Notes: generated by a model not told the origin, from the sequence alone. Shown: positions 4,545 to 32,000, numbered from the stretch's first letter. The stretch is DNA of 32,000 nucleotides from Flavobacteriaceae bacterium (GCA_965224465.1 OZ245049.1:4980001-5012000); one strand, 5' to 3'. Numbers and translations: made by a program.

Positions 4545-4578
4545 CGATTGTTAATACAGATACATATATAAGTTTTTT

Positions 4579-8249: not shown

Positions 8250-8266
8250 TATTAATATGAAATAAG

Positions 8267-10126: not shown

Positions 10127-10146
10127 TAGAATTCTAATTATTATTA

Positions 10147-11538: not shown

Positions 11539-11643
11539 GGAATACTTTTTAGAACGTTCGTGTAATAAGTAAAATATAGAAATTACGTTCTCCATATTTA
11601 GAACGCAGCTGTTTTAACGAATTACTTTTGTTTGTATTGTTAT

Positions 11644-11677
11644 AAAAAAAATGCTCACTTTAAAAGTGAGCATTTTT
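11644..11677. terminator. bidirectional terminator between the convergent ROK and 11693..12331 genes
   Basis: A 10-bp stem (atgctcactt / aagtgagcat) is flanked by an A7 run on one side and a T5 run on the other. Confidence 0.75.
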
Positions 11678-11692
11678 AATGTCTAACCAAAT

Positions 11693-12331: not shown

Positions 12332-12466
12332 TTTCAGGGTTTTAGGTTAAAATATCCCTTTAAAATTTCGAGGTGCAAAGATATATAAATATTTGTAATT
12401 AACAAGTGTTCATTGTTTTTTTATTTTTTATTGCTATTTTTAGCTATTGTGTTAGATGCTAGCTTT

Positions 12467-13501: not shown

Positions 13502-14012
13502 GGGTGTTTATCAACTGAAATAATAATTCGTCTTTATAGGTGTTTTTTGTGTAGATCCAATCTTTCTTGCATCCTACTTCTTTGAATTTTTTTTGTGTAA
13601 ATAATTGGATGCTATGGTCGTTGTCTGTAGTAATGTTTGCATAGAGTTGATGTAATTGTAGTTGGTTAAAACTATACGAAATCAATAGGTCCAAAGCTTC
13701 ACTAGCATGTCCTTGATTTTTAAATTTTGGGAGTATAATAATTCCGATACCTGCTCTGTGGTGTAGTGGCTCAAAATCAAAAAGATCAATCATGCCTATG
13801 GGAGTATTGTTCAAGTCAATGACAAAACGTAGTTGCTGTGCTTCAAAAATACTTTGATGAGCATTGGAGATGTACTGTTTTAAAATATGTTTTGAAAAAG
13901 GACTTACTGTACCACTTATTTCCCAAAAATCTTGATTGTTTTCTGTATCAAATAAAAAGGGTAGATCTTCTGGTTCTAAAGCGCGAAGTTTGATGTTTTT
14001 TCCGTGTAACAT
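13494..14012 (-). CDS. GNAT-family N-acetyltransferase (RimJ/RimL-like)
   Basis: It is 172 aa, and HRAGIGIIILPKFKNQGHASEAL is an acetyl-CoA-binding (motif A-like) segment. It overlaps mltG by 8 nt, which indicates an operon. Confidence 0.7.
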   Translation of the reverse strand: MLHGKNIKLRALEPEDLPFLFDTENNQDFWEISGTVSPFSKHILKQYISNAHQSIFEAQQLRFVIDLNNTPIGMIDLFDFEPLHHRAGIGIIILPKFKNQGHASEALDLLISYSFNQLQLHQLYANITTDNDHSIQLFTQKKFKEVGCKKDWIYTKNTYKDELLFQLINTHE

Positions 14013-18033: not shown

Positions 18034-20055
<2,022 letters not shown>

Positions 20056-20100
20056 TCTATATTCTGAGGGAGTTATAAAAAAGTAGAGTGAGGCATTTAT

Positions 20101-20257
20101 ACCAACTAAAATCCAAAATGACCGATATAAATAGGTTGTTTTTTGTTCTAGTGTTGTTAAGAAATAGAACGATAGCTAATGCTATCCATCCATTTTTCGA
20201 TTAGCTAAAACAAAAAATAAATTCATTTCTAAACCTTCACTTGGAAATGTGTTTGGT
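20101..20257. repeat. intergenic repeat copy A (~155 bp)
   Basis: It aligns by eye with 21211..21365, e.g. atccaaaat[ga]ac[cg]gatataaataggttgtttt, gttcta..tagaac, gatagc-nnnn-gctatc and ggaaatgt. Its 3' 70 bp also aligns with 22519..22588. Confidence 0.8.
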
Positions 20258-20346
20258 GTTATCCAAATATCCCCGTAATTTTCGCCATTGCGAAAAGTGT
20301 AGGACACAGTGATTTTTAATCCCACTAGTGGGTTTAATTTCCCCAT
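20182..20346 (-). pseudogene. 54-aa minus-strand ORF, probable remnant of a decayed gene family
   Basis: My own translation is MGKLNPLVGLKITVSYTFRNGENYGDIWITPNTFPSEGLEMNLFFVLANRKMDG. It is below the ORF-track cutoff. The C-terminal FPSxGLxMxLFF segment is also encoded in copies B and C, where it is cut by nearby stops. Confidence 0.35.
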
Positions 20347-20511
20347 GCTTGCATCGAAATGATTAAGGTTTTTTTCTTTTTCATGCCTCGTGGGCTTGCT
20401 CCGAGGTTATTGACTTCTTTATTGAGGGGGCAAGGGTATGTCCCTTAAAAGGAAAAAAGTCTTCGAAAAAAAAGCACGTACTCTTGTCAAGTCTATTCAT
20501 TTTTTTTACAT

Positions 20512-20547
20512 AAAAAAAAGCTCCATCAAATGAAGCTTATTTTTTTA
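20512..20547 (-). terminator. rho-independent terminator of the cold-shock gene
   Basis: The hairpin is agctccat / atgaagct (one mismatch), flanked by A8 and T7 runs. It lies 17 bp beyond the csp stop on the minus strand. Confidence 0.7.
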
Positions 20548-20563
20548 AAAAAGTTGCGTAAAA

Positions 20564-20755
20564 TTAAATTACTTTAACGTTTACTGCATTTAATCCTTTT
20601 TTACCTTCTGTTAATTCGAATTCAACTGCGTCTCCTTCTCTTACTTCATCAATCAATCCTGTAACGTGTAGGAAATACTCTGTTTTTGAATCGTCTTCTA
20701 TAACAAAACCAAAACCTTTAGATTCGTTAAAGAACTTTACTGTACCATTTTTCAT
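20564..20755 (-). CDS. cold-shock protein (CspA family, single CSD)
   Basis: The protein is 63 aa and carries the RNP1 motif GTVKFFNESKGFGFV and the RNP2-like YFLHV. Confidence 0.93.
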   Translation of the reverse strand: MKNGTVKFFNESKGFGFVIEDDSKTEYFLHVTGLIDEVREGDAVEFELTEGKKGLNAVNVKVI

Positions 20756-21210
20756 TTGTGTATTATGTTTTACTGTTTGATAATTTTTTAACTTACTTAT
20801 ATGACTGAAAATGACATAAAAATCCAGTACTAATAAGGCTAAATCACTTACCTATATTAATTTATATTTCAAAGATAAGATTAATATTTCTTGATTTAAC
20901 ATAATTTGTCTAGTTTTTTTAAAATTGATCAAGACACTAAGATAAAATTGCATTGTTTTTTTTGTTGTTTGAGGGACACTTAAGTAGTTCAGTTTGTTGT
21001 TTTGTAACGGTTAAGTGTGTCCTGTCTGATTCTGTATAGCAATAAGATTATATAGTTTTTTTAAAAAAGCGTCAATAAAACATTTGTTGGAATGGTGGTT
21101 TTTCAAATAATAGCTTAGAAATAGAGGGGGATTTACTGCGGTCGTCCTCTATTTTAAGGATTGAAAAGATGAGGAGTTTTAGCGTCGATTAGATTCCCTA
21201 AACTATTTGT

Positions 21211-21365
21211 ACCATTTACAATCCAAAATAACGGATATAAATAGGTTGTTTTACGTTCTAGTATTGTTGAAAAACAGAACGATAGCGAAGGCTATCCTTA
21301 GAATTTTCACCTAGCTAAAAAAAAATAGTTTCATTTTTAAACCGTGACTAGGAAATGTATTGGAC
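21211..21365. repeat. intergenic repeat copy B
   Basis: See copy A. Both small hairpins are preserved, with gttct..agaac and gatagc gaag gctatc. Confidence 0.8.
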
Positions 21366-21759
21366 ATTACAGAATTCAATTGTACTTATTTAGGGTTCTA
21401 TAGATTATTGTTAAAATAGGGGGCTATTAATTATATGGAACTCTTCTCTTTATTGCGTATTCTGTTTTTTATCGAGCGATTTTTTTTTAGTGTAGAGAAG
21501 TAAACTGATGTTCATTGGAGTTGTATTTTAGATCGGCAGTTGGGAGATGTTTAAATTTAAGGTTTCGGTTTTTTTTGGAGACTGAATTCAGACAACATAA
21601 AATGTAAAAAGTATTACTTTAGTAGTATGAATAAGAAATAATTTTATATTTTTCAACAATCATTTCTGTAAATTAATAAAGAAGCCCGTAGTACTATTAA
21701 ACTCTTTCCTTTGGAGAGATGCCAAACAAAGCGGGGGTAATGAATCAAGAAACCAATCA

Positions 21760-22413
21760 ATGAATAAAAAAATAGCCCTATTTATCTTTACAAGTGTAGC
21801 ATGCATAGATATGCTCGGAATTATTCTTGAAATTGAAGTACTACGATTTGTATTTAAACCTTTAATTCTACTGTCCTTAATGGCATTGTATAAGGTAAGT
21901 ACGAGTAATGGAATACACGCTCCCTATTTATTAGCCTTGGTGTTTTCTTTTTTTGGAGATGTTTTTTTGTTGTTTCAAGGGGATTTGTTTTTTATGTTAG
22001 GATTAGGAGCTTTTTTGATAGCGCATTTGTTTTTTATCAAACTCGTAGTTTTGTGGTGGAAGGAATTTAGATTGAGAAATTTACTTTTAACGGCGGTTCC
22101 TTTTGTGTTATTGGTTACAGGTTTGATTGTGTTTTTAAGAAGTTATTTAGATGAAATGTTTGTTCCTGTTGTTGTGTACGCCATGGTTATAGGTGCCTTT
22201 GGGACAGTGGCTACGATATTGTATCAGCAAAGAAAAACGAAAGCTGCATTTACCATGATGCTAGGTGCATTTGTATTTATGGTGTCAGATACCATCTTGT
22301 CTATCAATTTGTTTTACAAACCCATGATGCTGTTGAATATCTTAGTGATGTTTACGTATGTCCTAGCGCAGTACTTGATTTATAGTGCTGTTGTTTTGAA
22401 ACAGAAAATCTAA
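21760..22413 (+). CDS. YhhN-family (lysoplasmalogenase/TMEM86-like) integral membrane protein
   Basis: The 217-aa protein is hydrophobic almost throughout. It has the FSFFGDVFLL and GAFVFMVSDTILS motifs typical of YhhN. Confidence 0.75.
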   Translation: MNKKIALFIFTSVACIDMLGIILEIEVLRFVFKPLILLSLMALYKVSTSNGIHAPYLLALVFSFFGDVFLLFQGDLFFMLGLGAFLIAHLFFIKLVVLWWKEFRLRNLLLTAVPFVLLVTGLIVFLRSYLDEMFVPVVVYAMVIGAFGTVATILYQQRKTKAAFTMMLGAFVFMVSDTILSINLFYKPMMLLNILVMFTYVLAQYLIYSAVVLKQKI

Positions 22414-22518
22414 AATTCAGGGGGCTAGACTTCGAAATAGAAAATAGTCTTTGGGGAATTTACATCGGACTCTTGAGGTGAAGTTGTTGCTTGGGAAACT
22501 GAATGGATTCTATGGGTA

Positions 22519-22588
22519 ATCCTTAGAGTTTTCGCCTAACTAAAACAAAAAATAATTCCATTTCTAAACCGTCACTTGGAAATGTATT
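22519..22588. repeat. intergenic repeat copy C (partial), abutting the first RHS cassette
   Basis: The segment atccttagagttttcgcctaactaaaacaaaaaataattccatttctaaaccgtcacttggaaatgtatt aligns with the 3' halves of copies A and B. Confidence 0.75.
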
Positions 22589-22595
22589 TTATAAG

Positions 22596-23786
22596 TTGCA
22601 AAAAACGATCATTGAAAAAAATACTCCAAATGCACTTACCCAATATGTAGGTAATTATGTGTGTAAGAATAATGAATTACAATTCTTTAATCATGCCGAA
22701 GGCTATGTAGAACCAGTCATTGCGAGCGGTAGCGCGGCAATCTCATTCTTTAACTATGTGTACCAGTACAAAGACCATTTAGGGAATATCAGACTGTCAT
22801 ACACAGATGCAGATGGGAATGGGACAATTAAACAGGATGAGATTATTGAAGAAAATAATTATTATCCCTTTGGACTTGAACATAAAGGATACAATAATGT
22901 TGTCAATGGTGCGGAAAACAACTACTACAATTATAACGGGAAAGAGCTTAACGAATCTTTAGGTTTGAATTTGTTAGAATATGAAGCGAGAAGTTATGAT
23001 CCAGCTATAGGAAGATGGACGAGTGTTGACCCGTTAGCTGATAAGTATTATAAATTTAGCCCTTATGTTTATGTTGGTAATAGTCCTACAATAGCAGTCG
23101 ACCCAGATGGAAAAAGAATACTATTTGTAAATGGATATTGGAATAGTTGGATTGGAGGTCTTATAGGTTCAAGTAATCTAGGTAAGAAATACTGGGGAAG
23201 TGGATTTACAAGTGCTGCTCAAAGATTTTTTGGAGATTATTCATCTGTTTCTGATTCTAATTATATTGATGGTTCTTCATCTTTTGGAGGAGATTCAAGT
23301 GGTGGCGGTAGAGAAAAAGATGGATATGCATATGCTAAAGCAAATTATACTACATTAACAGATGGTTTAGCAGAAGATGAAACCTTTAAACTTGTCACTC
23401 ATAGTGAAGGAGGTGCATATGGAGCAAGAGTTGCGAGATATCTAATAGAGAAAGGACATACCGTAGAAACCGTTCTACATTTATCTACAGATGAAGGAGA
23501 CGAATTCGAAACACCTGAAGAAGCAGATACTTATCAATTAAGTTATGGTGGAGATTGGGTAACTGGAAATAAAGAAATCAGTAAAGGTGTTGATATTATT
23601 GGTGTAGTTGATAAATATGAGAAGAAATCAGACAAAAATAAGTATGCTCACGGTTCTACTAAAGGTTCATCTGTGTTTAAGTCTGCCAAAGCTTTATTAA
23701 AAGCAGCAGCGTCAGGAGCGACAGGTGTTAATGTAACTGAAACAAAAAGTGGAATTAAATTTGAATTTATAAGAGATAATAATTAA
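22596..23786 (+). CDS. orphan RHS C-terminal fragment 1: RHS core plus alpha/beta-hydrolase (lipase/esterase-like) toxin domain
   Basis: The RHS core motifs YVYQYKDHLGNIRLSYTD, NNYYPFGL, RSYDPAIGRWTSVDPLA and the cleavage-type VDPDGK (23100..23114) are present. Downstream lie ILFVNG, the nucleophile elbow VTHSEGGAYG (Ser codon 23403..23405) and AHGS. The only start is a TTG, and the fragment lacks the upstream YD repeats, so it may not be translated. Confidence 0.75.
   Translation: MQKTIIEKNTPNALTQYVGNYVCKNNELQFFNHAEGYVEPVIASGSAAISFFNYVYQYKDHLGNIRLSYTDADGNGTIKQDEIIEENNYYPFGLEHKGYNNVVNGAENNYYNYNGKELNESLGLNLLEYEARSYDPAIGRWTSVDPLADKYYKFSPYVYVGNSPTIAVDPDGKRILFVNGYWNSWIGGLIGSSNLGKKYWGSGFTSAAQRFFGDYSSVSDSNYIDGSSSFGGDSSGGGREKDGYAYAKANYTTLTDGLAEDETFKLVTHSEGGAYGARVARYLIEKGHTVETVLHLSTDEGDEFETPEEADTYQLSYGGDWVTGNKEISKGVDIIGVVDKYEKKSDKNKYAHGSTKGSSVFKSAKALLKAAASGATGVNVTETKSGIKFEFIRDNN
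22638..22915 (+). repeat. conserved cassette block, copy 1 (3' half only)
   Basis: It aligns from TQYVGNY onward. Together with cassette 3 it shares the extension NVVNGAE beyond KHKGYN. Confidence 0.85.
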
Positions 23787-23790
23787 AAAG

Positions 23791-24105
23791 ATGACTAATA
23801 TTAGTAAAAACACTTATTTAACGGTTAATATTATACTGGTACTATTAGGTGCATATATTGTGTATTTTATATCCAATTTTTGGATTGGTAGCCAAGACCA
23901 ACACGAGATGGTTATTGACAACTCGGGAGTATCTTTTTTCTTTAAGAAGTTTGTTCTTAATTTAGCGGTAATAGCTCTTATAATAGGCTTTATGGCTATA
24001 GTTAATAAATTGCTTAAAAATAATAATATAAAAAAGACTTTATTATATAGTACTATTCTACTTATTGTATTGTCAATAGTAGCAATATCTTTTTCAATGA
24101 GTTAA
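23791..24105 (+). CDS. small 3-TM membrane protein, candidate immunity protein for cassette 1
   Basis: It is 104 aa with three hydrophobic helices. It starts 4 nt after the toxin stop and is followed by a strong terminator. Confidence 0.55.
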   Translation: MTNISKNTYLTVNIILVLLGAYIVYFISNFWIGSQDQHEMVIDNSGVSFFFKKFVLNLAVIALIIGFMAIVNKLLKNNNIKKTLLYSTILLIVLSIVAISFSMS

Positions 24106-24127
24106 TGTTTAAAATAATATTTATAAT

Positions 24128-24156
24128 AAAAAGCCACTCTTCGGAGTGGTTTTTTT
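24128..24156 (+). terminator. rho-independent terminator after immunity gene 1
   Basis: The hairpin is gccactc ttcg gagtggt, followed by a T7 run. Confidence 0.8.
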
Positions 24157-24210
24157 ATGCTCTAAAGTAAAGCTATATTTTTATCAAAAAAATCTTTAAA
24201 CTTCATATTG

Positions 24211-24352
24211 GTAAGCCCCTGATGCCGCGCGAGTAACCGCAGCGCTACTGCGAGATTGTGTCTCGTGGCGTCAACGTTAAGACCCGAACGCGCGGACATG
24301 TCACCAACGTGATAGCGCGAGATTTGTAATCCGTGCCCTGCATGAGTAAGCC
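24211..24352. repeat. GC-rich junction modules, junction 1 (Y unit with an X unit nested in it)
   Basis: A GC-rich island of about 140 bp sits in an AT-rich background. The Y unit (gagtaaccgcagcgctactgcgagattgtgtctcgtggcgtcaacgttaag) and the X unit (cgcgcggacatgtcaccaacgtgatagcgcgagatttgtaatccgtgccc) both recur at 28622..28780. Confidence 0.8.
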
Positions 24353-24420
24353 ATACAATAGGTATAAAAGCAACCATTAAACGGATTTGTAATCGTTCTT
24401 TTAGGGAACAGTTTAATTCA

Positions 24421-24975
24421 AAAACCAAGGCAGCCATGTTGTGGTTTTTTACATGCTGGCTACACATACATTTCCCTCCTCCTCCTTGTCAAAACCTACG
24501 GATTCAAAAACGGCACAAATACAGGGGGCGAATACCTACGACAAAAACGGAAACATAATCTCCGATGCCAATAAAGGGATTAGCGCCATAACCTACAATT
24601 ATTTAAGCCTACCCGTCAAAGTAGTTTTTGGAACTAACCGTTTTATTGATTATATTTACGATGCCTCAGGTGTAAAACAACAAAAAGTAGTAACTGAGGG
24701 AAGTTCTTTAACAACCACGCAATACGTAGGTAATTATATTTATGAGAATAACAACCTTCAATTCTTTAATCATGCAGAGGGCTATGTAGAACCAGTCATT
24801 GCGAGCGGTAGCGCGGCAATCTCATCCTTTAACTATGTGTACCAATACAAAGATCATTTAGGTAATATTCGACTGTCATACACAGATGCAGATGGGAATG
24901 GGACAATTAAACAGGATGAGATTATTGAAGAAAATAATTATTATCCCTTTGGACTGAAACATAAAGGGTATAATA
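24421..24975 (+). repeat. conserved cassette block, copy 2
   Basis: It is a near-identical direct repeat of 26766..27375, 28768..29350 and 30902..31497. Its 3' half also matches 22638..22915. Confidence 0.9.
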
Positions 24976-25169
24976 ACGGAATAAGCTCTTTGGGTAACTC
25001 GGTTGCGCAACGCTATAAGTTTGGAGGAAAGGAATATGATGAGAGTTTTGATGGTACTTTAAATACCTATGATTTTGGAGCTAGGAATTATGATCCTGCA
25101 ATTGGTAGGTGGATGAATATTGACCCACTGGCTGACCAAATGCGTAGACACTCTCCGTATAATTATGCT
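24441..25169 (+). pseudogene. orphan RHS C-terminal fragment 2, truncated by IS insertion
   Basis: The YD repeats and RHS core (YDKNGNIISDANKG ... YQYKDHLGNIRLSY ... NYDPAIGRWMNIDPLA ... SPYNYA) run straight into the IS left end at 25170. The ATG conserved in the other cassettes is ATA here (24555..24557). No DPxG motif or toxin domain remains. Confidence 0.85.
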
Positions 25170-26437
25170 GGTTCTACCACGAATGTTGTGGAATTAGTAT
25201 CTTTACCTCAAAAAGATGTTTTCAACAAAACTGTTTGAGTTACTATTAAATTTAGGAACAGATTGGAAGGTTTGTGATGTAAAAGTTAATTATCTAGATT
25301 CAGAAATAGACATATTTATAGACTATATACCAACTAAAGCATCTTGTCCAGACACAGAAGAGTTGTGTAGTATTTATGATCATAGAAGCACTCGTAGATG
25401 GCGTCATTTAGACACCTTACAATTCAAAACCTACATTAATTGTAAAGTCCCAAGAGTTAAGTCAACTAAAGGCGTTAAAACGATAACGGTACCATGGGCT
25501 AGTAATTTTTATCGTCATACTTATCTATTTGAAAGGCTAACTATAGACTTATTGAAAGCAACAAAAAATCAAAGTCAAACGGCTAAACTATTACGTTGTG
25601 GCTTTAATATTGTAAACCGAATCATACATACTTCTGTAAAAAGAGGGCTTTCTAAGAGGTCAGAAAACCAAAAATTTTCTCATCTAAGTATTGATGAAAA
25701 AGCTTTCAAAAAGGGGCATAACTATGTGACTGTAGTTAGTGATCCGAGTACAGGAATTGTAATTGATGTTGCAGAAGGCAGGACTAAAAAAGAGACTAAA
25801 ATTTTACTTAAAAAGATTGTAAATGAGATAAATAGAGATGAAGTAGAGACCGTTTCTATTGACATGTGGAAAGCCTATTTATCATCAGTAAAAGAAGTTT
25901 TTCCAAATGCGAAAGTTGTCCATGATCGATTTCACTTAGTAAAGTACTTAAATGATGCTATAGATAAAGTTCGCAGACGTGAAGTGAAAAAAGAAGAAGG
26001 TCTTAAAAATAGTAGATTTGTATTGCTTAAAAATAAAGAAAACTTAACGGATAAACAAAGAGTATTATTTGACAAAATACAAGAAGCAAATTATCAAGCA
26101 AGTAAAGCATGGTTAGCTAAAGAAAATTTTAAAAATATATTTAGAAGCCCATCTTTGAAAGTTGCTTTAGGTCTTTTTATCAAATGGGGAGCAAGTGTTT
26201 TGGAAACAAAAATTAAAGAAATTATAAAGGTTGCTAAGATGTTTAATAACCATATAGAAGGGGTGTGTAATGCAATGATTGAGACTGCTTCTAATGCAAT
26301 GGCAGAAAGACTAAATGGTAAAATACAAGAAATAAAATCTATCGGTAAAGGTTACAGAACTTTCGCTAATTTTAGAAGTGCAATACTATTTTTTAATGGA
26401 GGTTTAGATTTGTACCCACACAAATCGTGGTAGAACC
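25170..26437 (+). mobile_element. ISL3-family insertion sequence (~1.27 kb)
   Basis: The terminal inverted repeats are GGTTCTACCACGAATGTTGTGG (25170..25191) and the reverse complement of 26416..26437, GGTTCTACCACGATTTGTGTGG (19/22 identical). They enclose a single transposase ORF. Confidence 0.88.
25216..26433 (+). CDS. ISL3-family DDE transposase
   Basis: The motifs IDEKAFKKGHNYVTVVSD, SIDMWKAYLSSVKEVFPNAKVVHDRFHLVKYLNDAIDKVRRRE and AERLNGKIQEIKSIGKGYRTFANFRSAILFFNG are typical ISL3 transposase blocks. The protein is 405 aa. Confidence 0.88.
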   Translation: MFSTKLFELLLNLGTDWKVCDVKVNYLDSEIDIFIDYIPTKASCPDTEELCSIYDHRSTRRWRHLDTLQFKTYINCKVPRVKSTKGVKTITVPWASNFYRHTYLFERLTIDLLKATKNQSQTAKLLRCGFNIVNRIIHTSVKRGLSKRSENQKFSHLSIDEKAFKKGHNYVTVVSDPSTGIVIDVAEGRTKKETKILLKKIVNEINRDEVETVSIDMWKAYLSSVKEVFPNAKVVHDRFHLVKYLNDAIDKVRRREVKKEEGLKNSRFVLLKNKENLTDKQRVLFDKIQEANYQASKAWLAKENFKNIFRSPSLKVALGLFIKWGASVLETKIKEIIKVAKMFNNHIEGVCNAMIETASNAMAERLNGKIQEIKSIGKGYRTFANFRSAILFFNGGLDLYPHKSW

Positions 26438-26723
26438 TTATTACATTGTTAAATATGGGGTTCATAAATCAGAATTAACCCCACATATAGATTCTATTGC
26501 TTTACGGTTAAATTATAAAAAATACGGAAAAGAAAATGTGTTTTTTAATCCTAATTCAAAAAAGTTAGAAGTAATAGAAAAGAAATTTGAAATATTATAT
26601 TTAGATAAAGATAGGGTTTGGAAAATAGTTAATTATTCATCCGACATGAAATATCTTAACAGGTATTTTGGAAAAGGGTTTTCTGAGTGTATTAAATCAA
26701 ACCCTCCACTGCTGCAAGAATAA
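26438..26723 (+). pseudogene. 5'-truncated ORF remnant downstream of the IS (possibly the tail of the lost cassette-2 immunity gene)
   Basis: The listed ORF 26427..26723 starts at a GTG inside the IS right inverted repeat. The first internal ATG is near its 3' end. The stop lies inside the GC-rich junction module. Confidence 0.4.
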
Positions 26724-26780
26724 CCACCATCGCTACCGCGATATTCTATCTCGTGGCGTCAACGTTAAGCCACGCAGCAA
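26702..26780. repeat. GC-rich junction module, junction 2 (single Y unit)
   Basis: The unit aataaccaccatcgctaccgcgatattctatctcgtggcgtcaacgttaagccacgcagc is homologous to the Y units of junctions 1, 3 and 4. Confidence 0.8.
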
Positions 26781-27375
26781 TTAAAACTACTAAAACCACA
26801 GCAGAAATGTTGTGGTTTTTACATGTTGGCTACACATACATTTCCCTCCTCCTTCCTCTCCTCCTTGTCAAAACCTACGGCTTTAAAGACGGCACAAATA
26901 CAGGCAACGACTATACCTACGACAAAAACGGAAACATGATCTCCGATGCCAATAAAGGGATTAGCGCCATAACCTACAATTATTTAAACCTACCCATCAA
27001 AGTAAGTTTTGGAACTAACCGTTTTATTGATTATATTTACGATGCCTCAGGAGTAAAACAACAAAAAGTAGTAACTGAGGGAAGTTCTTTAACAACCACG
27101 CAATACGCAGGTAATTATATTTATGAGAATAACAACCTTCAATTCTTTAATCATGCAGAGGGCTATGTAGAACCAGTCATTGCGAGCGGTAGCGCGGCAA
27201 TCTCATCCTTTAACTATGTGTACCAATACAAAGATCATTTAGGTAATATTCGACTGTCATACACAGATGCAGATGGGAATGGGACAATTAAACAGGATGA
27301 GATTATTGAAGAAAATAATTATTATCCCTTTGGACTTAAACATAAAGGGTACAATAATGTCGTGAATGGTGCGGA
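26766..27375 (+). repeat. conserved cassette block, copy 3
   Basis: It is a direct repeat of the other cassette blocks, and the differences are mostly third-codon-position changes. Confidence 0.9.
26796..26820 (+). terminator. terminator-like hairpin plus T-run inside junction 2
   Basis: The hairpin ccacagca gaaa tgttgtgg (8 bp, one G.T pair) is followed by T5. The same element occurs at 28798..28823 and 30931..30956. Confidence 0.6.
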
Positions 27376-28258
27376 AAGTAAGTACAAATACCACGGAAAA
27401 GAGCATCAAGAAGAATTAGGTTTAAATTGGTACGATTATGGAGCAAGGAATTACCAACCTGATATTGGAAGATGGTTTAATCCAGATCCTTTAAGTGATG
27501 AGTTTCCAGAATGGTCACCTTATAACTTTGTTAAAAATAATCCTTCTTTTTATATCGACCCAACAGGATTAGCACCTGAAACTATTTATGAAGATATAAA
27601 TAGTGGAGAAACAGTTGAAGTAGATGATGGTATTGACAAGACTATAAAAGTTAATAGTTCTAATTTTCAGAAAGCGAAATCTTTTGCTAATGAAATCAAT
27701 TCCAATCCAGATGCAAATGGTATGACATCTATTGGTGTTAGTAGAGATGTAGCTGATGGATATAATGAGTTTTATAATAGTGTTAACTCTTATGATGGTT
27801 TTAGTTTATCAAACTTATATGATTATGCTTTTGTCCAACCTGAACTAACTGTTACAGGAGAAGTTACAGGTTCAGCAGGTGCTTTAGAATATGTTTCTGT
27901 TGGTGTAGGTGGTTTTATCTTAAAAAGTTTAGGAAATAACCTTGCAAGAAATAGTTCAAAAATATTGAATTTCACTTCGAAACAATTACAAGCTAAATTT
28001 AAACATGCAGTAGATTTTGGTGTAAAAGGAAGTTGGAATAAAGGAGCAGGTAGTAAATTTAGTTCAGTTATTAACCAACATATTAATTCTTCGAGTGTTC
28101 AAATTATACAAGGAACTTATAGAGGTAATCCTGCAGTTCATTATTTAAATTCGAAATCTGGATTAAATGTAATTGCAAATCCAAATGGAACTTTTGTTAG
28201 TGGGTGGAAACTTAATTCTAAACAATTAGAAAATGTAATTAAGCATGGAGGATTATAA
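26936..28258 (+). CDS. orphan RHS C-terminal fragment 3: YD repeats plus RHS core plus colicin-D-like (tRNase-type) toxin domain
   Basis: It starts at the conserved ATG (MISDANKG), and the frame is also open upstream to 26753. The RHS core ends at IDPTGL (27557..27571). The C-terminal ~110 aa (QLQAKFKHAVDFGVKG ... IQGTYRGNPAVHYLNSKSGLNVIANPNGTFVSGWKLNSKQL) resembles my recollection of the colicin D nuclease family. Confidence 0.8.
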   Translation: MISDANKGISAITYNYLNLPIKVSFGTNRFIDYIYDASGVKQQKVVTEGSSLTTTQYAGNYIYENNNLQFFNHAEGYVEPVIASGSAAISSFNYVYQYKDHLGNIRLSYTDADGNGTIKQDEIIEENNYYPFGLKHKGYNNVVNGAESKYKYHGKEHQEELGLNWYDYGARNYQPDIGRWFNPDPLSDEFPEWSPYNFVKNNPSFYIDPTGLAPETIYEDINSGETVEVDDGIDKTIKVNSSNFQKAKSFANEINSNPDANGMTSIGVSRDVADGYNEFYNSVNSYDGFSLSNLYDYAFVQPELTVTGEVTGSAGALEYVSVGVGGFILKSLGNNLARNSSKILNFTSKQLQAKFKHAVDFGVKGSWNKGAGSKFSSVINQHINSSSVQIIQGTYRGNPAVHYLNSKSGLNVIANPNGTFVSGWKLNSKQLENVIKHGGL

Positions 28259-28270
28259 AATGATTAAAAA

Positions 28271-28510
28271 ATGAAAGCAGAAAAAATTAAAAATAATATA
28301 TCAATTGAATTATCTAAAGAAGAAGCCATTGTTTTTCTAAATTGGTTATTTACATTCAATGAAAAAAAGCATCCTGATTTATTTCAAGACCAATCAGAAG
28401 AAAGGGTACTATGGGATATTGAAGCAACATTGGAAAAAGCTGTAGATGAAACTTTTAGCAATAATTATAACAATATATTATCAGAAGCAAGAAAAAAAGT
28501 AAGAGATTAA
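28271..28510 (+). CDS. small acidic protein, candidate immunity protein for cassette 3
   Basis: It is 79 aa, Glu/Asp-rich and has no signal peptide. It lies 12 nt after the toxin stop. The size and charge fit a cytoplasmic nuclease inhibitor. Confidence 0.55.
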   Translation: MKAEKIKNNISIELSKEEAIVFLNWLFTFNEKKHPDLFQDQSEERVLWDIEATLEKAVDETFSNNYNNILSEARKKVRD

Positions 28511-28621
28511 CTATTGCTTTTACCAGTTTTTTATTGTGCTGATTTTTGAGTTAAGTCAGCTTTAAAGACAAAAGTAAGTAAGTATTATAAAGCAGAACTT
28601 GACGCAATCAAGAAAATGAAA

Positions 28622-28780
28622 TCCCGATGGCGCGGACATACCGCCCACGTGATAGCGCGGATTTGCAATCCGTGCCCACAAAGTGCGTCACGTAAGGTTG
28701 CTCCCCCCGCTGCCGCGTGAGTAACCGCAGCGCTACCACGTAGATTGTATCTCGTGGCGTCAGAGAGTAAGCCACGCAGC
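28622..28780. repeat. GC-rich junction modules, junction 3 (X unit then Y unit)
   Basis: The X unit is ggcgcggacataccgcccacgtgatagcgcggatttgcaatccgtgccc. The Y unit is gagtaaccgcagcgctaccacgtagattgtatctcgtggcgtcagagagtaagccacgcagc. The order is the opposite of junction 1. Confidence 0.8.
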
Positions 28781-29350
28781 AATTAAAACTACTAAAACCA
28801 CAGCAGAAATGTTGTGGTTTTTTACATGCTGGCTACACATACATTTCCCTCCTCCTCCTCCTTGTCAAAACCTACGGATTCAAAGACGGCACAAATACAG
28901 ACAACGACTATACCTACGACAAAAACGGAAACATGATCTCCGATGCCAATAAAGGGATTAGCGCCATAACCTACAATTATTTAAACCTACCCACCAAAGT
29001 AAGTTTTGGAACTAACCGTTTTATTGATTATATTTACGATGCCTCAGGTGTAAAGCAACAAAAAGTAGTAACTGAGGGAAGTTCTTTAACAACCACGCAA
29101 TACGCAGGTAATTATATTTATGAAAATAACAACCTTCAATTCTTTAATCATGCAGAGGGCTATGTAGAGCCAGTTATTGCGAGCGGTAGCGCGGCAATCT
29201 CATCCTTTAACTATGTGTACCAATACAAAGACCATTTAGGGAATATCAGACTGTCATATACTGATGCAGATGGGAATGGGACAATTAAACAGGATGAAAT
29301 TATTGAAGAAAATAATTATTATCCCTTTGGACTGAAACATAAAGGGTATA
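28768..29350 (+). repeat. conserved cassette block, copy 4 (homology with copy 2 continues to ~29510)
   Basis: It is a direct repeat. The extra ~160 bp (SSLGNSVAQRYKFGGKEYDESFDGTLNTYDFGARNYDPAIGRWMNIDPLA) is shared only with cassette 2. Confidence 0.9.
28798..28823 (+). terminator. terminator-like hairpin plus T-run inside junction 3
   Basis: The hairpin is ccacagca gaaa tgttgtgg, followed by T6. Confidence 0.6.
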
Positions 29351-30294
29351 ATTTTAATACATCTTCTTTAGGGAATTCGGTAGCGCAACGCTATAAGTTT
29401 GGAGGAAAGGAATATGATGAAAGTTTTGATGGCACTTTAAATACCTATGATTTTGGAGCAAGGAACTATGATCCTGCAATTGGTAGGTGGATGAATATTG
29501 ACCCGCTTGCGGAATTAATGATGACATATAGTCCTTATAATTATGCATTTAATAATCCGATTTATTATATTGATTCAGACGGAATGTCGCCCTATAATTC
29601 GGTAATTAAGTCTGATTATTATAGAGATAAGAACAACAATGTATGGTATGATTCTAATGTTTTTGGCCCTAGTGATGTTCCTAATGGAGGGACTTATATG
29701 GGACCCACATATTATGATGAAATAAATGGAACATTTTGGGATGTAAATGGGGATCCTCACACTAGAGTGCAGGCTTTAAATGAAGTAGTTGTAACAGGAA
29801 CATCTTCTAGTGCTTTTACTATTTATGGAATCGGTACAGATACTTCAGTAGAAAAATCTAGTGGTTTTACTACTCATGGGGCTGGTACAGATACTTCAGG
29901 TAGAGAGGGTATTACTACTCATGGAATAGGTTATGATGATTTTACTCCTTTAGGTGGCGGAGGTAAATCAAGTTCTGTTTTAGCTCAAATTTTAAGATTT
30001 ATTAGTGGTTTATTCTCAACGGTAAATAATGTAAATAAAGTATTTGAACCTAATGTGTCTACAATGGAGAACATTGAAAAAGAGGAATCAAAGAAAACAC
30101 CAGGAAATGTGAAAGTTGTTTTAAAACATTATCTAAAATCATTTCATAAAAAAGATGGAATGGGCAATGTTTTTCATAAAATTGATTCTATAGTTCGAGA
30201 TACTGTTGAAATTAAAACTTTTAACATAGAGAAAACAAAAGATTCAGTTAGAAATCAAAATGCAAATAGAAAAAGGAGAGTAAGAGAATGGTAA
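28933..30294 (+). CDS. orphan RHS C-terminal fragment 4: YD repeats plus RHS core plus C-terminal domain of unknown type
   Basis: It starts at the conserved ATG (MISDANKG). The RHS core ends at IDSDGM (29572..29586). The ~235-aa C-terminus has three tandem [FI]T[IT][YH]G[IA]G[TY]D[TD] motifs, a Gly run, a hydrophobic helix and a Lys/Arg-rich tail. I recognise no catalytic motif. Confidence 0.8.
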   Translation: MISDANKGISAITYNYLNLPTKVSFGTNRFIDYIYDASGVKQQKVVTEGSSLTTTQYAGNYIYENNNLQFFNHAEGYVEPVIASGSAAISSFNYVYQYKDHLGNIRLSYTDADGNGTIKQDEIIEENNYYPFGLKHKGYNFNTSSLGNSVAQRYKFGGKEYDESFDGTLNTYDFGARNYDPAIGRWMNIDPLAELMMTYSPYNYAFNNPIYYIDSDGMSPYNSVIKSDYYRDKNNNVWYDSNVFGPSDVPNGGTYMGPTYYDEINGTFWDVNGDPHTRVQALNEVVVTGTSSSAFTIYGIGTDTSVEKSSGFTTHGAGTDTSGREGITTHGIGYDDFTPLGGGGKSSSVLAQILRFISGLFSTVNNVNKVFEPNVSTMENIEKEESKKTPGNVKVVLKHYLKSFHKKDGMGNVFHKIDSIVRDTVEIKTFNIEKTKDSVRNQNANRKRRVREW

Positions 30295-30317
30295 TTTTAA
30301 TTAAAAAAAACATAATT

Positions 30318-30830
30318 ATGTATAAATATTTTTATTCATTTATCCTAGCATTAGTTATTGTTATTGGCTGTAATAATAGAAACCCCAGCATTAAAGAATC
30401 TAATATAAAAAGTGAAGAAGTAGTAAAATCTAATAATTCATTCCAAATTATTGAAAAGAAAAAAACAGAGTACAATGAGTATATAGGATTGATTGAGTTA
30501 AGTGACACTATATATATTGGAAAGAACGTTGGAAAAATTGTTAATTATAAGCCAAGAAGGAGTGATATCGATTATTTATTATCAGTTATTATTGAAAACG
30601 AATATGATAATGGCAGAATAGTTAAAGATACATTTAGTGATGGCACATTAGCCCCTTGGTTTGGGGTCTATGCAAACAAGATTGGTTTCAAAAAAATTAG
30701 AGGGACTATTTTAGAAGAAGCTCTGAATGACGATAAAAGTAAATTTGATAGCGTTTTACGAATTGAAAGAACTTTTATTCATTTCGTAAAAGAAGTGTAT
30801 GTAATGGATAGTATTTTCAGGGTAGAGTAA
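30318..30830 (+). CDS. lipoprotein, candidate immunity protein for cassette 4
   Basis: The internal start MYKYFYSFILALVIVIGC gives a signal peptide with a lipobox Cys. The listed start at 30288 overlaps the toxin stop (ATGGTAA) and is the alternative start. Confidence 0.55.
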   Translation: MYKYFYSFILALVIVIGCNNRNPSIKESNIKSEEVVKSNNSFQIIEKKKTEYNEYIGLIELSDTIYIGKNVGKIVNYKPRRSDIDYLLSVIIENEYDNGRIVKDTFSDGTLAPWFGVYANKIGFKKIRGTILEEALNDDKSKFDSVLRIERTFIHFVKEVYVMDSIFRVE

Positions 30831-30835
30831 GCATA

Positions 30836-30907
30836 CCTCCCCGTTGGTGCGCGAATAACCGCCATCGCTATTACACGAATCTTTCATGTAGTGTCCACGA
30901 GTAAGCC
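30836..30907. repeat. GC-rich junction module, junction 4 (single, more diverged Y unit)
   Basis: The unit is cctccccgttggtgcgcgaataaccgccatcgctattacacgaatctttcatgtagtgtccacgagtaagcc. Confidence 0.7.
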
Positions 30908-31497
30908 AACAAGCAATTAAAACAACAAAACCACAGCAGTAAGCTGTGGTTTTTTTATATGTTGGCTACACATACATTTCCCTCCTCCTCCTTGTCATTT
31001 CCATAAAGGAAAGACAAAACCTACGGATTCAAAGACGGCACAAATACAGGCAACGTATACCTACGACAAAAACGGAAACATGATCTCCGATGCCAATAAA
31101 GAGATTAGCGCCATAACCTACAATTATTTAAACCTACCCGTCAAAGTAGTTTTTGGAACTAACCGTTTTATTGATTATATTTACAATGCCTCAGGAGTAA
31201 AACAACAAAAAGTAGTAACTGAGGGAAGTTCTTTAACAACCACGCAATACGCGGGTAATTATATTTATGAGAATAACAACCTTCAATTCTTTAATCATGC
31301 AGAGGGCTATGTAGAACCAGTTATTGCGAGCGGTAGCGCGGCAATCTCATCCTTTAACTATGTGTATCAATACAAAGACCATTTAGGGAATATCAGACTG
31401 TCATACACAGATGCAGATGGGAATGGGACAATTAAACAGGATGAAATTATTGAAGAAAATAATTATTATCCCTTTGGACTGAAACATAAGGGGTATA
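30902..31497 (+). repeat. conserved cassette block, copy 5
   Basis: It is a direct repeat of the other blocks. It contains a 19-bp palindromic insertion (atttccataaaggaaagac) after the CCT tract and a 2-nt deletion near 31055. Confidence 0.9.
30931..30956 (+). terminator. terminator-like hairpin plus T-run inside junction 4
   Basis: The hairpin ccacagc agtaa gctgtgg is followed by T7. The loop differs from junctions 2 and 3, and the G.T pair is now G-C, so the stem is preserved. Confidence 0.6.
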
Positions 31498-32000
31498 ATA
31501 CTAACATAAATGGAAGGTATCATAAATATGGTTTTAGTGGTAAAGAAGAGCAAGATGAACTAGGTCTTGGCTGGATTGATATTACTGCTAGGAATTATGA
31601 TGCTGCTTTGGGTAGATGGATGAACATTGACCCATTAGCAGAAAAAATGCGTAGACATAGTCCATATAATTATGCATACAATAATCCTATTTTCTTTATT
31701 GACCCTGATGGAATGGCACCTGTAGATTGGTATATTGACAGAAGAACAGGTAAGGTTCTTGGGCAAGATGGTGCATCAACGAATAATTTAAGGGTTATTG
31801 ATAAACGTGAATGGGACGGCGTAAAGGAAGATCACGGAGGTAGTATTTCTACTGCAGCGACAAAAGAACTTCAAGATAATAGTAAATTAATAACAGTTAA
31901 TGAATCGCAAATTCAAAATGAGGTTCAATCTGTTGCTGATGACACAAAAAGTGAAGGATTCGAAAATCAAGCGTTTATAACATTAAATGTGAATTCAGGA
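31080..32000 (+). CDS. orphan RHS C-terminal fragment 5 (3' end beyond the window), with a further distinct C-terminal domain
   Basis: My own translation from the conserved ATG at 31080 is open to the window end (307 codons). It reads MISDANKEISAITYNYLNLP ... YQYKDHLGNIRLSY ... ARNYDAALGRWMNIDPLA ... FFIDPDGM (31701..31715), then unrelated sequence (APVDWYIDRRTGKVLGQDG...). The ORF track does not list it because it has no stop in the window. Confidence 0.8.
   Translation, partial: MISDANKEISAITYNYLNLPVKVVFGTNRFIDYIYNASGVKQQKVVTEGSSLTTTQYAGNYIYENNNLQFFNHAEGYVEPVIASGSAAISSFNYVYQYKDHLGNIRLSYTDADGNGTIKQDEIIEENNYYPFGLKHKGYNTNINGRYHKYGFSGKEEQDELGLGWIDITARNYDAALGRWMNIDPLAEKMRRHSPYNYAYNNPIFFIDPDGMAPVDWYIDRRTGKVLGQDGASTNNLRVIDKREWDGVKEDHGGSISTAATKELQDNSKLITVNESQIQNEVQSVADDTKSEGFENQAFITLNVNSG

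What the first reader, a model, noticed from the sequence alone, without database searches (positions are those of the whole stretch)
22440..32000. Tandem array of at least five orphan RHS toxin/immunity cassettes with no full-length rhs gene ahead of it
Seen in the sequence: five same-strand copies of a ~0.3-0.6 kb block encode the last YD repeats and the RHS core. Each block ends in a DPxG[LMK]-type cleavage motif. Each is followed by a completely different C-terminal domain and, where intact, a small unrelated ORF. The genes directly upstream of cassette 1 are yhhN and a cold-shock gene, not an rhs body, and cassette 1 is the most 5'-truncated. No T6SS, T9SS or other secretion gene, PAAR/VgrG gene or recombinase is in the window. 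Established knowledge: orphan rhs/cdiA CT-immunity modules normally sit directly downstream of a full-length gene. They can replace its tip by homologous recombination through the core-coding homology, as shown experimentally for Salmonella rhs orphans. Arrays of orphan immunity genes also act as acquired interbacterial defence islands in Bacteroidales. Inference: this is either a silent toxin-tip library for a full-length rhs elsewhere in the genome, or an immunity island in which the toxin remnants are hitch-hikers. Either would be unusual in a flavobacterial context, and at least two toxin domains look uncharacterised.
Basis: partly seen in the sequence, partly recalled or inferred. Interest (0 to 1): 0.8.

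Follow-up and report, generated by a model that had tools for sequence, protein, structure and literature searches.

The report
Headless array of orphan Rhs toxin cassettes
A marine flavobacterium carries a row of at least five leftover toxin-tip and antidote gene pairs whose parent toxin gene has been lost, each separated by a conserved folded DNA/RNA spacer not previously described; the array itself is an ordinary kind of thing, the spacer is the new part.

Summary
Five same-strand rhs fragments (22590-32000) all hit the RHS core domain. Each carries a different C-terminal domain and is followed by a small ORF. One is a colicin-D tRNase, one a lipase-like hydrolase, two are unknown, and one was destroyed by an ISL3 insertion.

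The window lies on a 5.24-Mb chromosome. Its annotated proteins include all five cassettes and a sixth. No long Rhs protein with a similar block was found; the best long match anywhere is 71% identical. So the "silent library for a full-length rhs elsewhere" reading is not supported.

Cassette 1 has no spacer and is cut off against a local repeat. It is probably the stump of the deleted main gene.

Cassettes 2-5 share one 5' junction and a spacer, which I call E. E holds a 9-bp hairpin with compensatory changes, then an intrinsic-terminator hairpin. E recurs at rhs loci of Tenacibaculum, Aquimarina and Flavobacterium, including loci with an intact DUF6443-Rhs gene.

Orphan cassettes are common in Flavobacteriia, so that context is not unusual. 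My best reading is a decapitated, partly decayed displacement array. It was built by recombination between the 0.57-kb block and E, and is now at most an immunity store.

The parts
22519..22589 (+). Copy C of a local ~70-160-nt repeat (copies A at 20095-20254 and B at 21205-21360). Its right end abuts the truncated 5' end of cassette 1.
22590..23114 (+). Cassette 1 rhs stump. It is the last ~175 codons of the Rhs shell/core, ends in DPDGK (23100-23114), and has no E element ahead of it. The first ~45 nt are diverged from the other copies.
23115..23786 (+). Cassette 1 C-terminal domain. It is a minimal alpha/beta hydrolase (lipase-like) with an invariant Ser (THSEGG) and nearly invariant Asp and His.
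   Evidence: (pLDDT 90)
23791..24105 (+). 104-aa ORF with three hydrophobic segments, the candidate immunity gene for c1. A homologous ORF follows the same CT family in L011 (69% identity) and L012 (33% identity). A TAAATTTG -7-like box lies at 23756.
24106..24490 (+). Spacer E1. It holds two hairpin modules (24243-24281, 24310-24349), a terminator-like hairpin (about 24421-24450), the leader ACATGCTGGCTACAC and a (CCT)n tract.
24491..25169 (+). Cassette 2 rhs block. It is cut after YNYAG by the IS, before the DPxG motif (P0001).
25170..26437 (+). ISL3-family insertion sequence with 22-nt inverted repeats and a transposase ORF at 25216-26433. There is no target-site duplication, which implies an adjacent deletion.
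26438..26723 (+). 3' fragment of a gene left by the IS-associated deletion, probably the end of cassette 2's immunity gene. Its stop codon lies in the GAATAACC box of E.
26702..26869 (+). Spacer E2, with a hairpin module (26731-26769) and a terminator-like hairpin (about 26792-26821).
26870..28258 (+). Cassette 3. It comprises the rhs block up to DPTGL (27557-27571), a linker and a colicin-D tRNase domain (P0297).
28271..28510 (+). 79-aa ORF, the candidate immunity gene for c3. It has no family match.
28600..28866 (+). Spacer E3, with two hairpin modules (28650-28688, 28731-28770) and a terminator-like hairpin (28794-28826).
28867..30294 (+). Cassette 4 (P0307). It comprises the rhs block up to DSDGM (29572-29586) and a rare uncharacterised C-terminal domain (29587-30294).
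30288..30830 (+). 180-aa ORF with a lipoprotein-like N-terminus (...VIGC), the candidate immunity gene for c4.
30838..31015 (+). Spacer E4, with a degenerate hairpin module, a perfect terminator hairpin (30927-30953), and a 19-nt insert carrying a stop codon in the leader.
31016..32000 (+). Cassette 5. The rhs block runs to DPDGM (31701-31715) and is followed by an uncharacterised C-terminal domain. It runs off the window; the complete protein is P0300 (434 aa).

Best explanation
This is a decapitated orphan array of the flavobacterial DUF6443-type Rhs family.

Each standard cassette (c2-c5) has four parts in order:
- E, a sense-strand structured hairpin followed by an intrinsic terminator.
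- The same 5'-truncated last ~235 codons of an Rhs shell/core.
- A private core end and toxin domain.
- An immunity candidate.

How it arose (inferred). E is the native 3' flank of every rhs-CT/immunity module in this family. A tandem duplication once joined the end of E to an internal rhs position and created the E|block junction. After that, the ~0.57-kb block served as the left homology arm and E as the right arm. Modules could then be duplicated, converted and swapped with foreign DNA by homologous recombination. That would explain the identical junctions alongside unrelated tips.

The head. Cassette 1 has no E, and its Rhs-like coding runs straight up to a repeat-associated breakpoint. 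It is most likely the stump of the former full-length gene, whose 5' ~3 kb were deleted.

Current state (inferred). With no intact partner gene in the genome, the toxin parts cannot be delivered. Each sits directly behind a terminator with no recognisable promoter, so they are probably not expressed. What selection can still see is the immunity genes. The array is therefore in effect an immunity store and a reservoir of tips for horizontal exchange, and insertion sequences are slowly eroding it.

Shown here: anatomy, domain identities, the shared junction, E conservation and covariation, recombination mosaicism, and the lack of a matching long Rhs among annotated proteins.
Inferred: the order of events, transcriptional silence, and an immunity benefit.
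For: - Five Rhs core domains sit on one strand, each with a different CT.
- c2-c5 begin Rhs homology at the same base (24491, 26870, 28867, 31016), behind the same non-coding element. Four more units on ENA contig L009 do the same.
- Cassette homology to full-length proteins starts at c3 aa 40-42, matching L002 aa 1064 of 1538, so these are 5'-truncated genes.
- c1 lacks E and abuts repeat copy C.
- Block variants differ mostly at synonymous sites: dN/dS is 0.02-0.24 in 8 of 10 pairs. Variable sites are mosaic. This fits divergence inside functional genes followed by recombination.
- E also lies after the immunity gene of intact main rhs loci (Tenacibaculum L003 and L005) and before each orphan in Aquimarina and F. 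crassostreae.
- The E hairpin shows 92% of cells paired against 71% in shuffles, 6 of 9 pairs with changes on both sides, and a covariation score of 0.537 against 0.193 (0 of 500 shuffles reach it). A G.U pair is invariant.
- A terminator-like hairpin sits immediately before each block.
- The chromosome's cassettes are in the protein collection, but no long Rhs from it turned up, and the best long match anywhere is 71% identical.
- Decay is visible: an ISL3 insertion with an adjacent deletion here, and IS200, IS30-like insertions and frameshifts in L009.
Against: - Four of the five toxin ORFs are fully open (c1, c3, c4, c5). That is more than simple neutral decay would predict in a 34% GC genome, so they may be recent, selected, or expressed.
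- Absence of a full-length partner rests on annotated proteins of 784-2464 aa listed among the best 120 hits. A pseudogenised or longer main gene, or one with a more diverged block, would be missed.
- On L009 the array begins with an intact E about 25 nt after a housekeeping gene, with no stump. A mechanism that inserts arrays at E explains that as well as a deletion does.
- There are no expression data. Only one immunity gene has a plausibly placed -7 box.
Confidence: 0.55

Rival explanations
1. Silent toxin-tip library. The cassettes are kept so that a full-length rhs elsewhere in the genome can acquire new tips by homologous recombination through the shared block, as shown for the Salmonella orphan.
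For: - The shared block is ~570 nt at 90-97% identity between cassettes. That is similar in size and identity to the 522-bp, 95% region used in Salmonella (PMC3967940).
- Four toxin ORFs are intact.
Against: - No long Rhs protein from the 5,241,564-bp contig appears among the best 120 of 7789 long hits to the block, although c1-c5 and a sixth cassette from that contig are in the collection. The best long match anywhere is 71% identical.
- Where a main gene is present (Aquimarina L010), main-orphan block identity is only 70-77%, which is poor substrate for homologous recombination.
- In c2 and c5 a 2-nt deletion puts the first ~15 block codons out of frame.
Confidence: 0.1
2. Integron-like cassette system. 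The E hairpins are recombination sites, structured in single-stranded DNA like attC. A site-specific recombinase encoded outside the window excises and inserts E-bounded rhs-CT/immunity cassettes, so arrays can be seeded without a main gene.
For: - The E hairpin has a conserved base and a variable but complementary top, a strand-specific G.T pair, and the same orientation as the rhs genes or cassettes in 22 of 23 hits.
- On L009, E bounds the array at both ends, and the array starts directly after a housekeeping gene.
- E is joined to different Rhs positions in different lineages.
- Bacteroidales rAID-1 arrays are a precedent. They have repetitive intergenic sequences described as integron-like, plus a XerD-type recombinase (bioRxiv 10.1101/471110).
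- Two tyrosine recombinase genes lie ~2 kb beyond E in L003.
Against: - No tyrosine or serine recombinase is in the window, in L009, L010 or L012.
- The hairpin is only ~21 nt.
- Every unit carries ~570 nt of near-identical sequence, which suffices for RecA-dependent exchange.
- E also sits after solitary main-gene modules, as expected of an ordinary 3' flank.
Confidence: 0.12
3. In-situ expression. The truncated genes are translated from the ATG just after the terminator (MLATHTFP(S)n...) or from internal starts. They would act inside the cell as toxin-antitoxin-like modules, as reported for the Salmonella rhs orphan.
For: - Six of eight units (window plus L009) carry a 2-nt deletion that puts the ATG of ACATGCTGG in frame with the block.
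- Annotators call proteins from these starts (P0001, P0121, P0297).
- Toxin ORFs are intact.
- There is precedent in PMC7043789 (abstract seen).
Against: - No promoter-like -33/-7 pair or TAnnTTTG box lies between the terminator and the start.
- The alternative MLW start lies inside the terminator stem.
- c5 and L009 unit 3 have a stop codon in the leader, and two L009 units are frameshifted.
- There is no secretion signal.
Confidence: 0.1
4. Pure genomic fossil. On this view neither the toxins nor the immunity genes are under selection, and the array is debris from past displacement events.
For: - IS insertions, an adjacent deletion, frameshifts and a lost main gene.
- Variable microsatellite and indels at the junction.
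Against: - Three immunity ORFs and four 220-codon CT ORFs remain open in an AT-rich genome.
- The c1 CT and membrane ORF pair is conserved across genera.
- E keeps its structure through compensatory changes.
Confidence: 0.13

Closest known systems
Orphan rhs-CT/rhsI modules of Enterobacteriaceae (Poole 2011, PMC3150448; Koskiniemi 2014, PMC3967940)
   Same: - 5'-truncated rhs fragments keep the core.
- Each has a different toxin tip and a downstream immunity gene.
- They are arranged in tandem on one strand.
- They share about 0.5 kb of near-identical homology.
   Different: - No full-length gene lies ahead of the array, and none was detected in the genome.
- All orphans share one exact 5' junction and a conserved structured spacer.
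- The parent family is the Bacteroidota DUF6443-Rhs type rather than PAAR/VgrG-linked Rhs.
[quoted passage not shown]
   Same: - Both occur in Bacteroidota.
- Both are co-oriented arrays of small immunity-type genes with repetitive intergenic sequence.
- Both can function without a linked delivery system.
   Different: - No XerD-type recombinase is seen here.
- GC content is not skewed relative to the flanks.
- Near-complete toxin domains and Rhs core fragments are retained.
- The intergenic element is a different sequence, made of a hairpin plus a terminator.
Canonical flavobacterial rhs locus, e.g. Aquimarina sp. AU119 OMPF01000014 (L010)
   Same: - The block belongs to the same protein family.
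- An E-like hairpin plus a CCACAGCA..TGTTGTGG terminator precedes each orphan.
- The orphans are 390-410 aa and are followed by small ORFs.
   Different: - L010 keeps the 1203-aa DUF6443-Rhs main gene, and the window does not.
- E joins the Rhs sequence ~35 codons further downstream in Aquimarina.
Integron gene cassettes with attC sites
   Same: - Both are arrays of promoterless cassettes.
- The cassettes are separated by imperfect palindromes in which structure is conserved more than sequence.
   Different: - There is no integrase, attI or Pc here.
- The hairpin is far shorter than attC.
- The cassettes share long homologous coding blocks.

Membership tests
Rhs/YD polymorphic toxin, orphan rhs-CT module | RHS repeat-associated core domain (TIGR03696) | tested here: met
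   All five fragments score above the curated cutoff, with E-values from 7e-11 to 8e-18.
Rhs/YD polymorphic toxin, orphan rhs-CT module | A PxxxxDPxGL-type motif marks the start of the toxin tip | tested here: met
   DPDGK, DPTGL, DSDGM and DPDGM are present in c1, c3, c4 and c5. c2 is cut by the IS before the motif.
Rhs/YD polymorphic toxin, orphan rhs-CT module | Variable C-terminal toxin domains | tested here: met
   c3 is a colicin-D tRNase. c1 has an alpha/beta-hydrolase fold with a Ser-Asp-His triad. The c4 CT is found at the C-terminus of a 1220-aa DUF6443-Rhs. Toxicity itself was not tested.
Rhs/YD polymorphic toxin, orphan rhs-CT module | Cognate immunity gene immediately downstream | tested here: inconclusive
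   Small ORFs follow c1, c3 and c4. Only the c1 pair is shown to co-occur elsewhere. No known immunity family matched.
Rhs/YD polymorphic toxin, orphan rhs-CT module | Located directly downstream of a full-length rhs gene | tested here: not met
   The genes upstream are YhhN and a cold-shock protein. No matching long Rhs from the same chromosome is in the protein collection.
rAID-1 (Bacteroidales) | XerD-family tyrosine recombinase at the head of the array | tested here: not met
   No Phage_integrase hit in the array ORFs (22596-30830) or in 10 of the upstream window ORFs. The region beyond 32000 could not be examined.
rAID-1 (Bacteroidales) | Conserved repetitive intergenic motifs between co-oriented short genes | tested here: met
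   The E element lies between all cassettes. Homology to the rAID motif itself could not be tested.
rAID-1 (Bacteroidales) | GC content skewed relative to the host genome | tested here: not met
   The array is 0.29-0.40 GC and the upstream 22 kb are 0.28-0.38 GC.
Integron | IntI integrase, attI, Pc promoter and attC sites | tested here: not met
   There is no integrase in the window. The E hairpin is ~21 nt, not an attC.
Colicin D tRNase domain (PF11429), for c3 | Domain match above cutoff and a conserved KHA catalytic-His motif | tested here: met
   Pfam gives 88 bits against a cutoff of 25. PDB 1v74 matches at 3e-11, with FKHAVDFG aligned to YKHAGDFG.
ISL3 insertion sequence | DDE_Tnp_ISL3 transposase, terminal inverted repeats, and an 8-bp target duplication | tested here: inconclusive
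   The transposase (1.6e-68) and 22-nt inverted repeats are present. The flanks ATTATGCT and TTATTACA are not a duplication, which implies an adjacent deletion.

The most novel reading that the evidence does not exclude
The E hairpin-plus-terminator element is the recombination site of a Flavobacteriaceae-wide, integron-like capture system for Rhs toxin/immunity cassettes. Alternatively, it is a new structured 3'-UTR RNA that controls those cassettes.
Probability: 0.15. Interest if true: 0.8.

Novelty: new variant of a known kind. Interest (0 to 1): 0.5.

Why it matters
Orphan toxin/immunity arrays are thought to drive rapid turnover of bacterial weapons and defences. How cassettes are added, and why they persist, is known mainly from enterobacteria and gut Bacteroidales.

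This locus shows three things in marine Flavobacteriaceae:
- Cassettes are standardised modules bounded by a conserved, covarying structured element.
- Arrays survive loss of the delivery gene.
- The arrays hold untested toxin families: a lipase-like domain with a membrane immunity partner, and two domains with no known relatives.

The E element gives a searchable marker for such arrays. It also offers a concrete handle (recombination arm, recombination site or RNA element) for testing how polymorphic-toxin loci diversify.

Tried and rejected
**Searches that found nothing useful**
- Exact-protein look-ups for the source genome failed for c3, YhhN, P0009, P0001 and P0121. I could not read the chromosome beyond the window.
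- The genome-contig scan with the invariant 28-mer did not return the source genome. It gave three Tenacibaculum full-length genes and five gammaproteobacterial hairpins.
- Two metagenome scans, one with the E|block junction and one with a block 32-mer, found nothing.
- Rfam found no family in 20000-32000 at E <= 1 apart from three chance-level hits.
- ARAGORN found no tRNA. That removed my idea that the GGATTTGCAATCC module is a tRNA-Cys remnant.
- The plasmid search gave only two weak core-domain matches, and the phage search gave none.
- No paper in the library mentions DUF6443.

**Toxin and immunity domains**
- PDB sequence searches were negative for the c1, c4 and c5 CTs and for the c3 immunity candidate.
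- The AlphaFold2 model of the c4 CT reached only pLDDT 55, so I did not run a fold search on it.

**Promoters**
- Sigma-70-type and Bacteroidota -33/-7 scans gave no promoter ahead of any block.

**Tool behaviour**
- The search for homologous proteins returns only proteins between roughly 0.55-0.75 and 1.75 times the query length.
- My first block search therefore could not see long proteins.
- I repeated it with six blocks in tandem to reach proteins of 784-2436 aa.

Full report
**1. Observation**

The region 22590-32000 holds five direct copies of an rhs 3' fragment on the plus strand.
- The repeat finder reports a 288-nt family at 22638, 24717, 27098, 29095 and 31242, and a 300-nt family just upstream of it in copies 2-5.
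- All five translations hit the RHS repeat-associated core domain TIGR03696 above its curated cutoff.
- In the DNA alignment, copies 2-5 are 90-97% identical over about 570 nt. They are then 65-75% identical over the last ~230 nt of the core, and unrelated beyond that.
- The tip-boundary motif is DPDGK, DPTGL, DSDGM and DPDGM in c1, c3, c4 and c5.
- Cassette 2 is cut before the motif by a 1268-bp ISL3 element (25170-26437). The element has 22-nt inverted repeats and a transposase hit at Pfam 1.6e-68. Its flanks are not a target duplication, so an adjacent deletion removed the c2 tip and the start of the next gene.
- Upstream lie YhhN, a cold-shock gene, ligA, HtrA, YceG, ROK and two SusC/SusD pairs. 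No secretion gene is present.

**2. The tips and their neighbours**

- **c3** carries a colicin-D tRNase domain (Pfam 4e-25; PDB 1v74 3e-11, with the KHA motif aligned).
- **c1** belongs to a CT family with many homologues.
  - One Ser (THSEGG) is invariant, and an Asp and a His are nearly invariant.
  - The AlphaFold2 model has pLDDT 90. Its best matches are minimal lipases and cutinases, at modest TM-scores of about 0.5.
  - The 104-aa three-segment membrane ORF after c1 recurs after the same CT family in a JGI contig (69% identity) and in Flavobacterium crassostreae (33% identity). That is the pattern expected of a toxin/immunity pair.
- **c4** has a CT with only 19 relatives among 1.84 billion cluster representatives. 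One of them is the C-terminus of a 1220-aa DUF6443-Rhs. The CT has no Pfam or PDB match, and its model was too poor to use.
- **c5** is complete as P0300. Its CT also has no match.
- The ORFs after c3 (79 aa) and c4 (180 aa, lipoprotein-like) match no known family.

**3. Is there a full-length partner?**

P0009 and P0001 are identical to c1 and c2. They come from a single 5,241,564-bp NCBI/ENA contig, and LigA from the window maps to the same contig.
- P0297, P0307 and P0300 are c3, c4 and c5.
- P0121 is a further cassette with the same leader that is not in the window.

So the collection holds this chromosome's annotated proteins.

The homology tool only returns proteins up to about 1.75 times the query length, so I queried with six blocks in tandem (1408 aa).
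- It returned 7789 hits. The 120 listed are 784-2436 aa, and most of them (109 of 120) carry DUF6443.
- The best identity was 71%, and none came from the 5.24-Mb contig.
- A main gene sharing the block at the 90-97% seen among the cassettes would have ranked first.

Three caveats remain:
- A pseudogenised main gene would be missed.
- A gene longer than about 2460 aa would be missed.
- A gene with a much more diverged block would be missed.

**4. What the cassettes share besides rhs**

Copies 2-5 start Rhs homology at the same base (24491, 26870, 28867, 31016), which corresponds to aa 1064 of 1538 in a Tenacibaculum full-length protein. Ahead of that point all four carry the same non-coding element, which I call E. 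In order, E contains:
- GC-rich modules.
- An A-rich stretch.
- A terminator-like hairpin, AAAACCACAGCAG-AAAT-GTTGTGGTTTTTT.
- The sequence ACATGCTGGCTACACATACATTTC.
- A (CCT)n tract.

Four more units on an unrelated ENA contig (L009) have the same E and the same junction. That array begins about 25 nt after an RNase T-like housekeeping gene, again with no rhs gene ahead.

**5. E is conserved across genera and is structured**

The GC-rich module is a 9-bp hairpin of the form GCGC-NNNNN-loop-NNNNN-GTGC. It is preceded by GCTA and followed by CAAAG and a GAGTAAGCC-like box. The inner five pairs differ between lineages but remain complementary:

| Inner stem | Where found |
|---|---|
| GGATT/AATCC | window, Tenacibaculum L005 |
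| GAGAT/ATCTC | window, L009 |
| TCGAT/ATCGA | Tenacibaculum L003 |
| TCGTC/GACGG | Aquimarina |
| AGATA/TATCT | F. crassostreae |

Measured on 13 instances:
- 92% of cells pair, against 71% in shuffles.
- 6 of 9 pairs change on both sides.
- The covariation score is 0.537 against 0.193, reached by none of 500 shuffles.
- Versions with the 3' partner slid by 1-3 columns pair at 27-57%.
- One pair is an invariant G.U. The structure therefore exists only on the sense strand, as RNA or as top-strand DNA.

A covariance model found 23 hits in 129 kb.
- 22 are in the orientation of the rhs genes.
- All lie after immunity genes or between cassettes.
- There are none in the first 24 kb of the window and none in five gammaproteobacterial loci.
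- Rfam has no such family.

E also follows the immunity gene of intact main-gene loci (L003, L005). It is therefore the normal 3' flank of an rhs-CT/immunity module, not something peculiar to orphans.

**6. How the array was probably built (inference)**

A tandem duplication of [block-tip-immunity-E] creates an E|block junction.
- The junction sits at a different Rhs position in each lineage: KTYGF here, NITYIYD in Aquimarina, and EFSYVQ in P0354.
- That fits independent duplications rather than one inherited junction.
- After a duplication, every tip is flanked by two conserved arms. Homologous recombination can then duplicate, convert or replace modules.

Three observations fit this:
- Block variants differ mainly at synonymous sites, with dN/dS of 0.02-0.24 in 8 of 10 pairs. 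The counts are small.
- Variable sites are mosaic between units.
- L009 units 2 and 4 share an identical 62-nt deletion.

Cassette 1 is different.
- It has no E.
- Its Rhs-like reading frame (YKLQKTIIEKNTPNALTQY) continues to position 22590.
- There it abuts the third copy of a local ~150-nt repeat.

I read c1 as the stump of the former main gene, or of a unit that followed it, left by a repeat-associated deletion.

**7. Present function**

- Each block sits directly behind a terminator.
- No sigma-70-like promoter or Bacteroidota -33/-7 promoter lies between E and the block. The only well-placed -7 box (23756) precedes the c1 immunity ORF.
- The MLW start that annotators use for c3 lies inside the terminator stem. 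The alternative ATG is in frame only where a 2-nt deletion occurred, and it is blocked by a stop codon in c5.

With no delivery domain and no partner gene, the toxins are most likely silent. Immunity is the only part that can plausibly still be selected. The integrity of four toxin ORFs remains unexplained under this view, and it keeps the expression and recent-acquisition alternatives open.

**8. Comparison with known systems**

- The array is a member of the orphan rhs-CT/rhsI kind described in enterobacteria (PMC3150448, PMC3967940). It fails the feature 'downstream of a full-length gene'.
- It resembles Bacteroidales rAID-1 arrays in having repetitive intergenic motifs and in working without a weapon. 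It lacks the XerD recombinase and the GC skew that define them.
- Orphan cassettes are common in Flavobacteriia.
  - 2021 short Rhs-core proteins matched the block.
  - Aquimarina sp. AU119 has a 1203-aa DUF6443-Rhs followed by two E-preceded orphans whose blocks are only 70-77% identical to the main gene.
  - The flavobacterial context is therefore not unusual.

**9. Verdict**

This is a real feature of a known kind. Three points go beyond the known picture:
- The main gene has been lost.
- The cassettes are standardised.
- A conserved, covarying inter-cassette element is present that I could not find in Rfam or in the literature library.

Interest is moderate (0.5). It would rise if E proves to be a recombination site or a regulatory RNA.

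Noticed in passing
window 22700-22727, 24779-24806, 27160-27187, 29157-29184, 31304-31331; L004 2763-2840: The invariant 28-mer ATTGCGAGCGGTAGCGCGGCAATCTCAT lies inside the rhs block, where it encodes VIASGSAAIS. The same 28-mer occurs exactly in five gammaproteobacterial or unclassified MAG contigs. Two were inspected and the 28-mer is intergenic in both; in L004 it is one arm of a ~25-bp-stem hairpin. The hairpin looks like a REP-type element. Why the same 28 nt sit in a flavobacterial coding sequence is unexplained.
   Followed up: partly
window 20095-20254, 21205-21360, 22519-22589: Three same-orientation copies of a ~70-160-nt non-coding repeat lie after ligA, before yhhN and after yhhN. 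The third copy ends exactly where the truncated cassette 1 begins. The repeat has no Rfam match and its nature is unknown (a MITE or another repeat).
   Followed up: partly
window 24470-24483, 26850-26866, 28848-28862, 30977-30990; L009 12070-12112: A (CCT)n microsatellite sits at the E|block junction. It varies from about 4 to 14 units between cassettes. A T-run of variable length and a 2-nt (AC) indel lie alongside it. Together these shift which upstream ATG is in frame with the block.
   Followed up: partly
L009 (ENA ERZ25073217 ctg10704l) 4219-14000: A second headless array of four units starts about 25 nt after an RNase T-like gene. An IS200-type Y1 transposase gene lies in unit 1 and an IS30-like gene follows unit 2. 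Units 2 and 4 share a 62-nt deletion, and an E remnant lies at the array end. P0121 from the window's own chromosome carries the same disrupted C-terminus as unit 1 of L009 (P0122), which lies just upstream of the IS200-type gene. A homologous array therefore probably exists in the source genome.
   Followed up: partly
L005 (Tenacibaculum sp. M341) 265-1523: At least five E-type hairpin modules cluster within 1.3 kb downstream of an intact rhs/immunity pair. They lie next to an IS110-family transposase fragment, with no cassettes between them.
   Followed up: no
L003 1721-3533: Two adjacent tyrosine recombinase genes lie about 2 kb beyond the E element of a Tenacibaculum main rhs locus. Whether they are linked to the rhs locus or belong to an unrelated mobile element was not examined.
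   Followed up: no
window 29806-29899: A 43-nt imperfect tandem duplication, spaced 51 nt apart, lies inside the cassette 4 toxin domain (SSAFTIYGIGTDTS / SSGFTTHGAGTDTS). The region is low-complexity and Gly/Thr-rich.
   Followed up: no
window 26721-26723; L009 6934-6936: In two cases the ORF upstream of E runs into E and stops at the TAA of its conserved GA(G/A)TAACC box. The last ~10 codons of those ORFs are therefore E sequence, which suggests recombination breakpoints inside the 3' ends of immunity genes.
   Followed up: no
window 11693-12331 (minus strand): A 212-aa ORF with an N-terminal hydrophobic segment lies between the ROK kinase and YceG genes. It has no Pfam match at E <= 1e-5.
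   Followed up: no
window 18052-20055: LigA from this genome is a singleton at 90% identity among 15 billion proteins. The source species therefore has no close sequenced relative in the collection.
   Followed up: no
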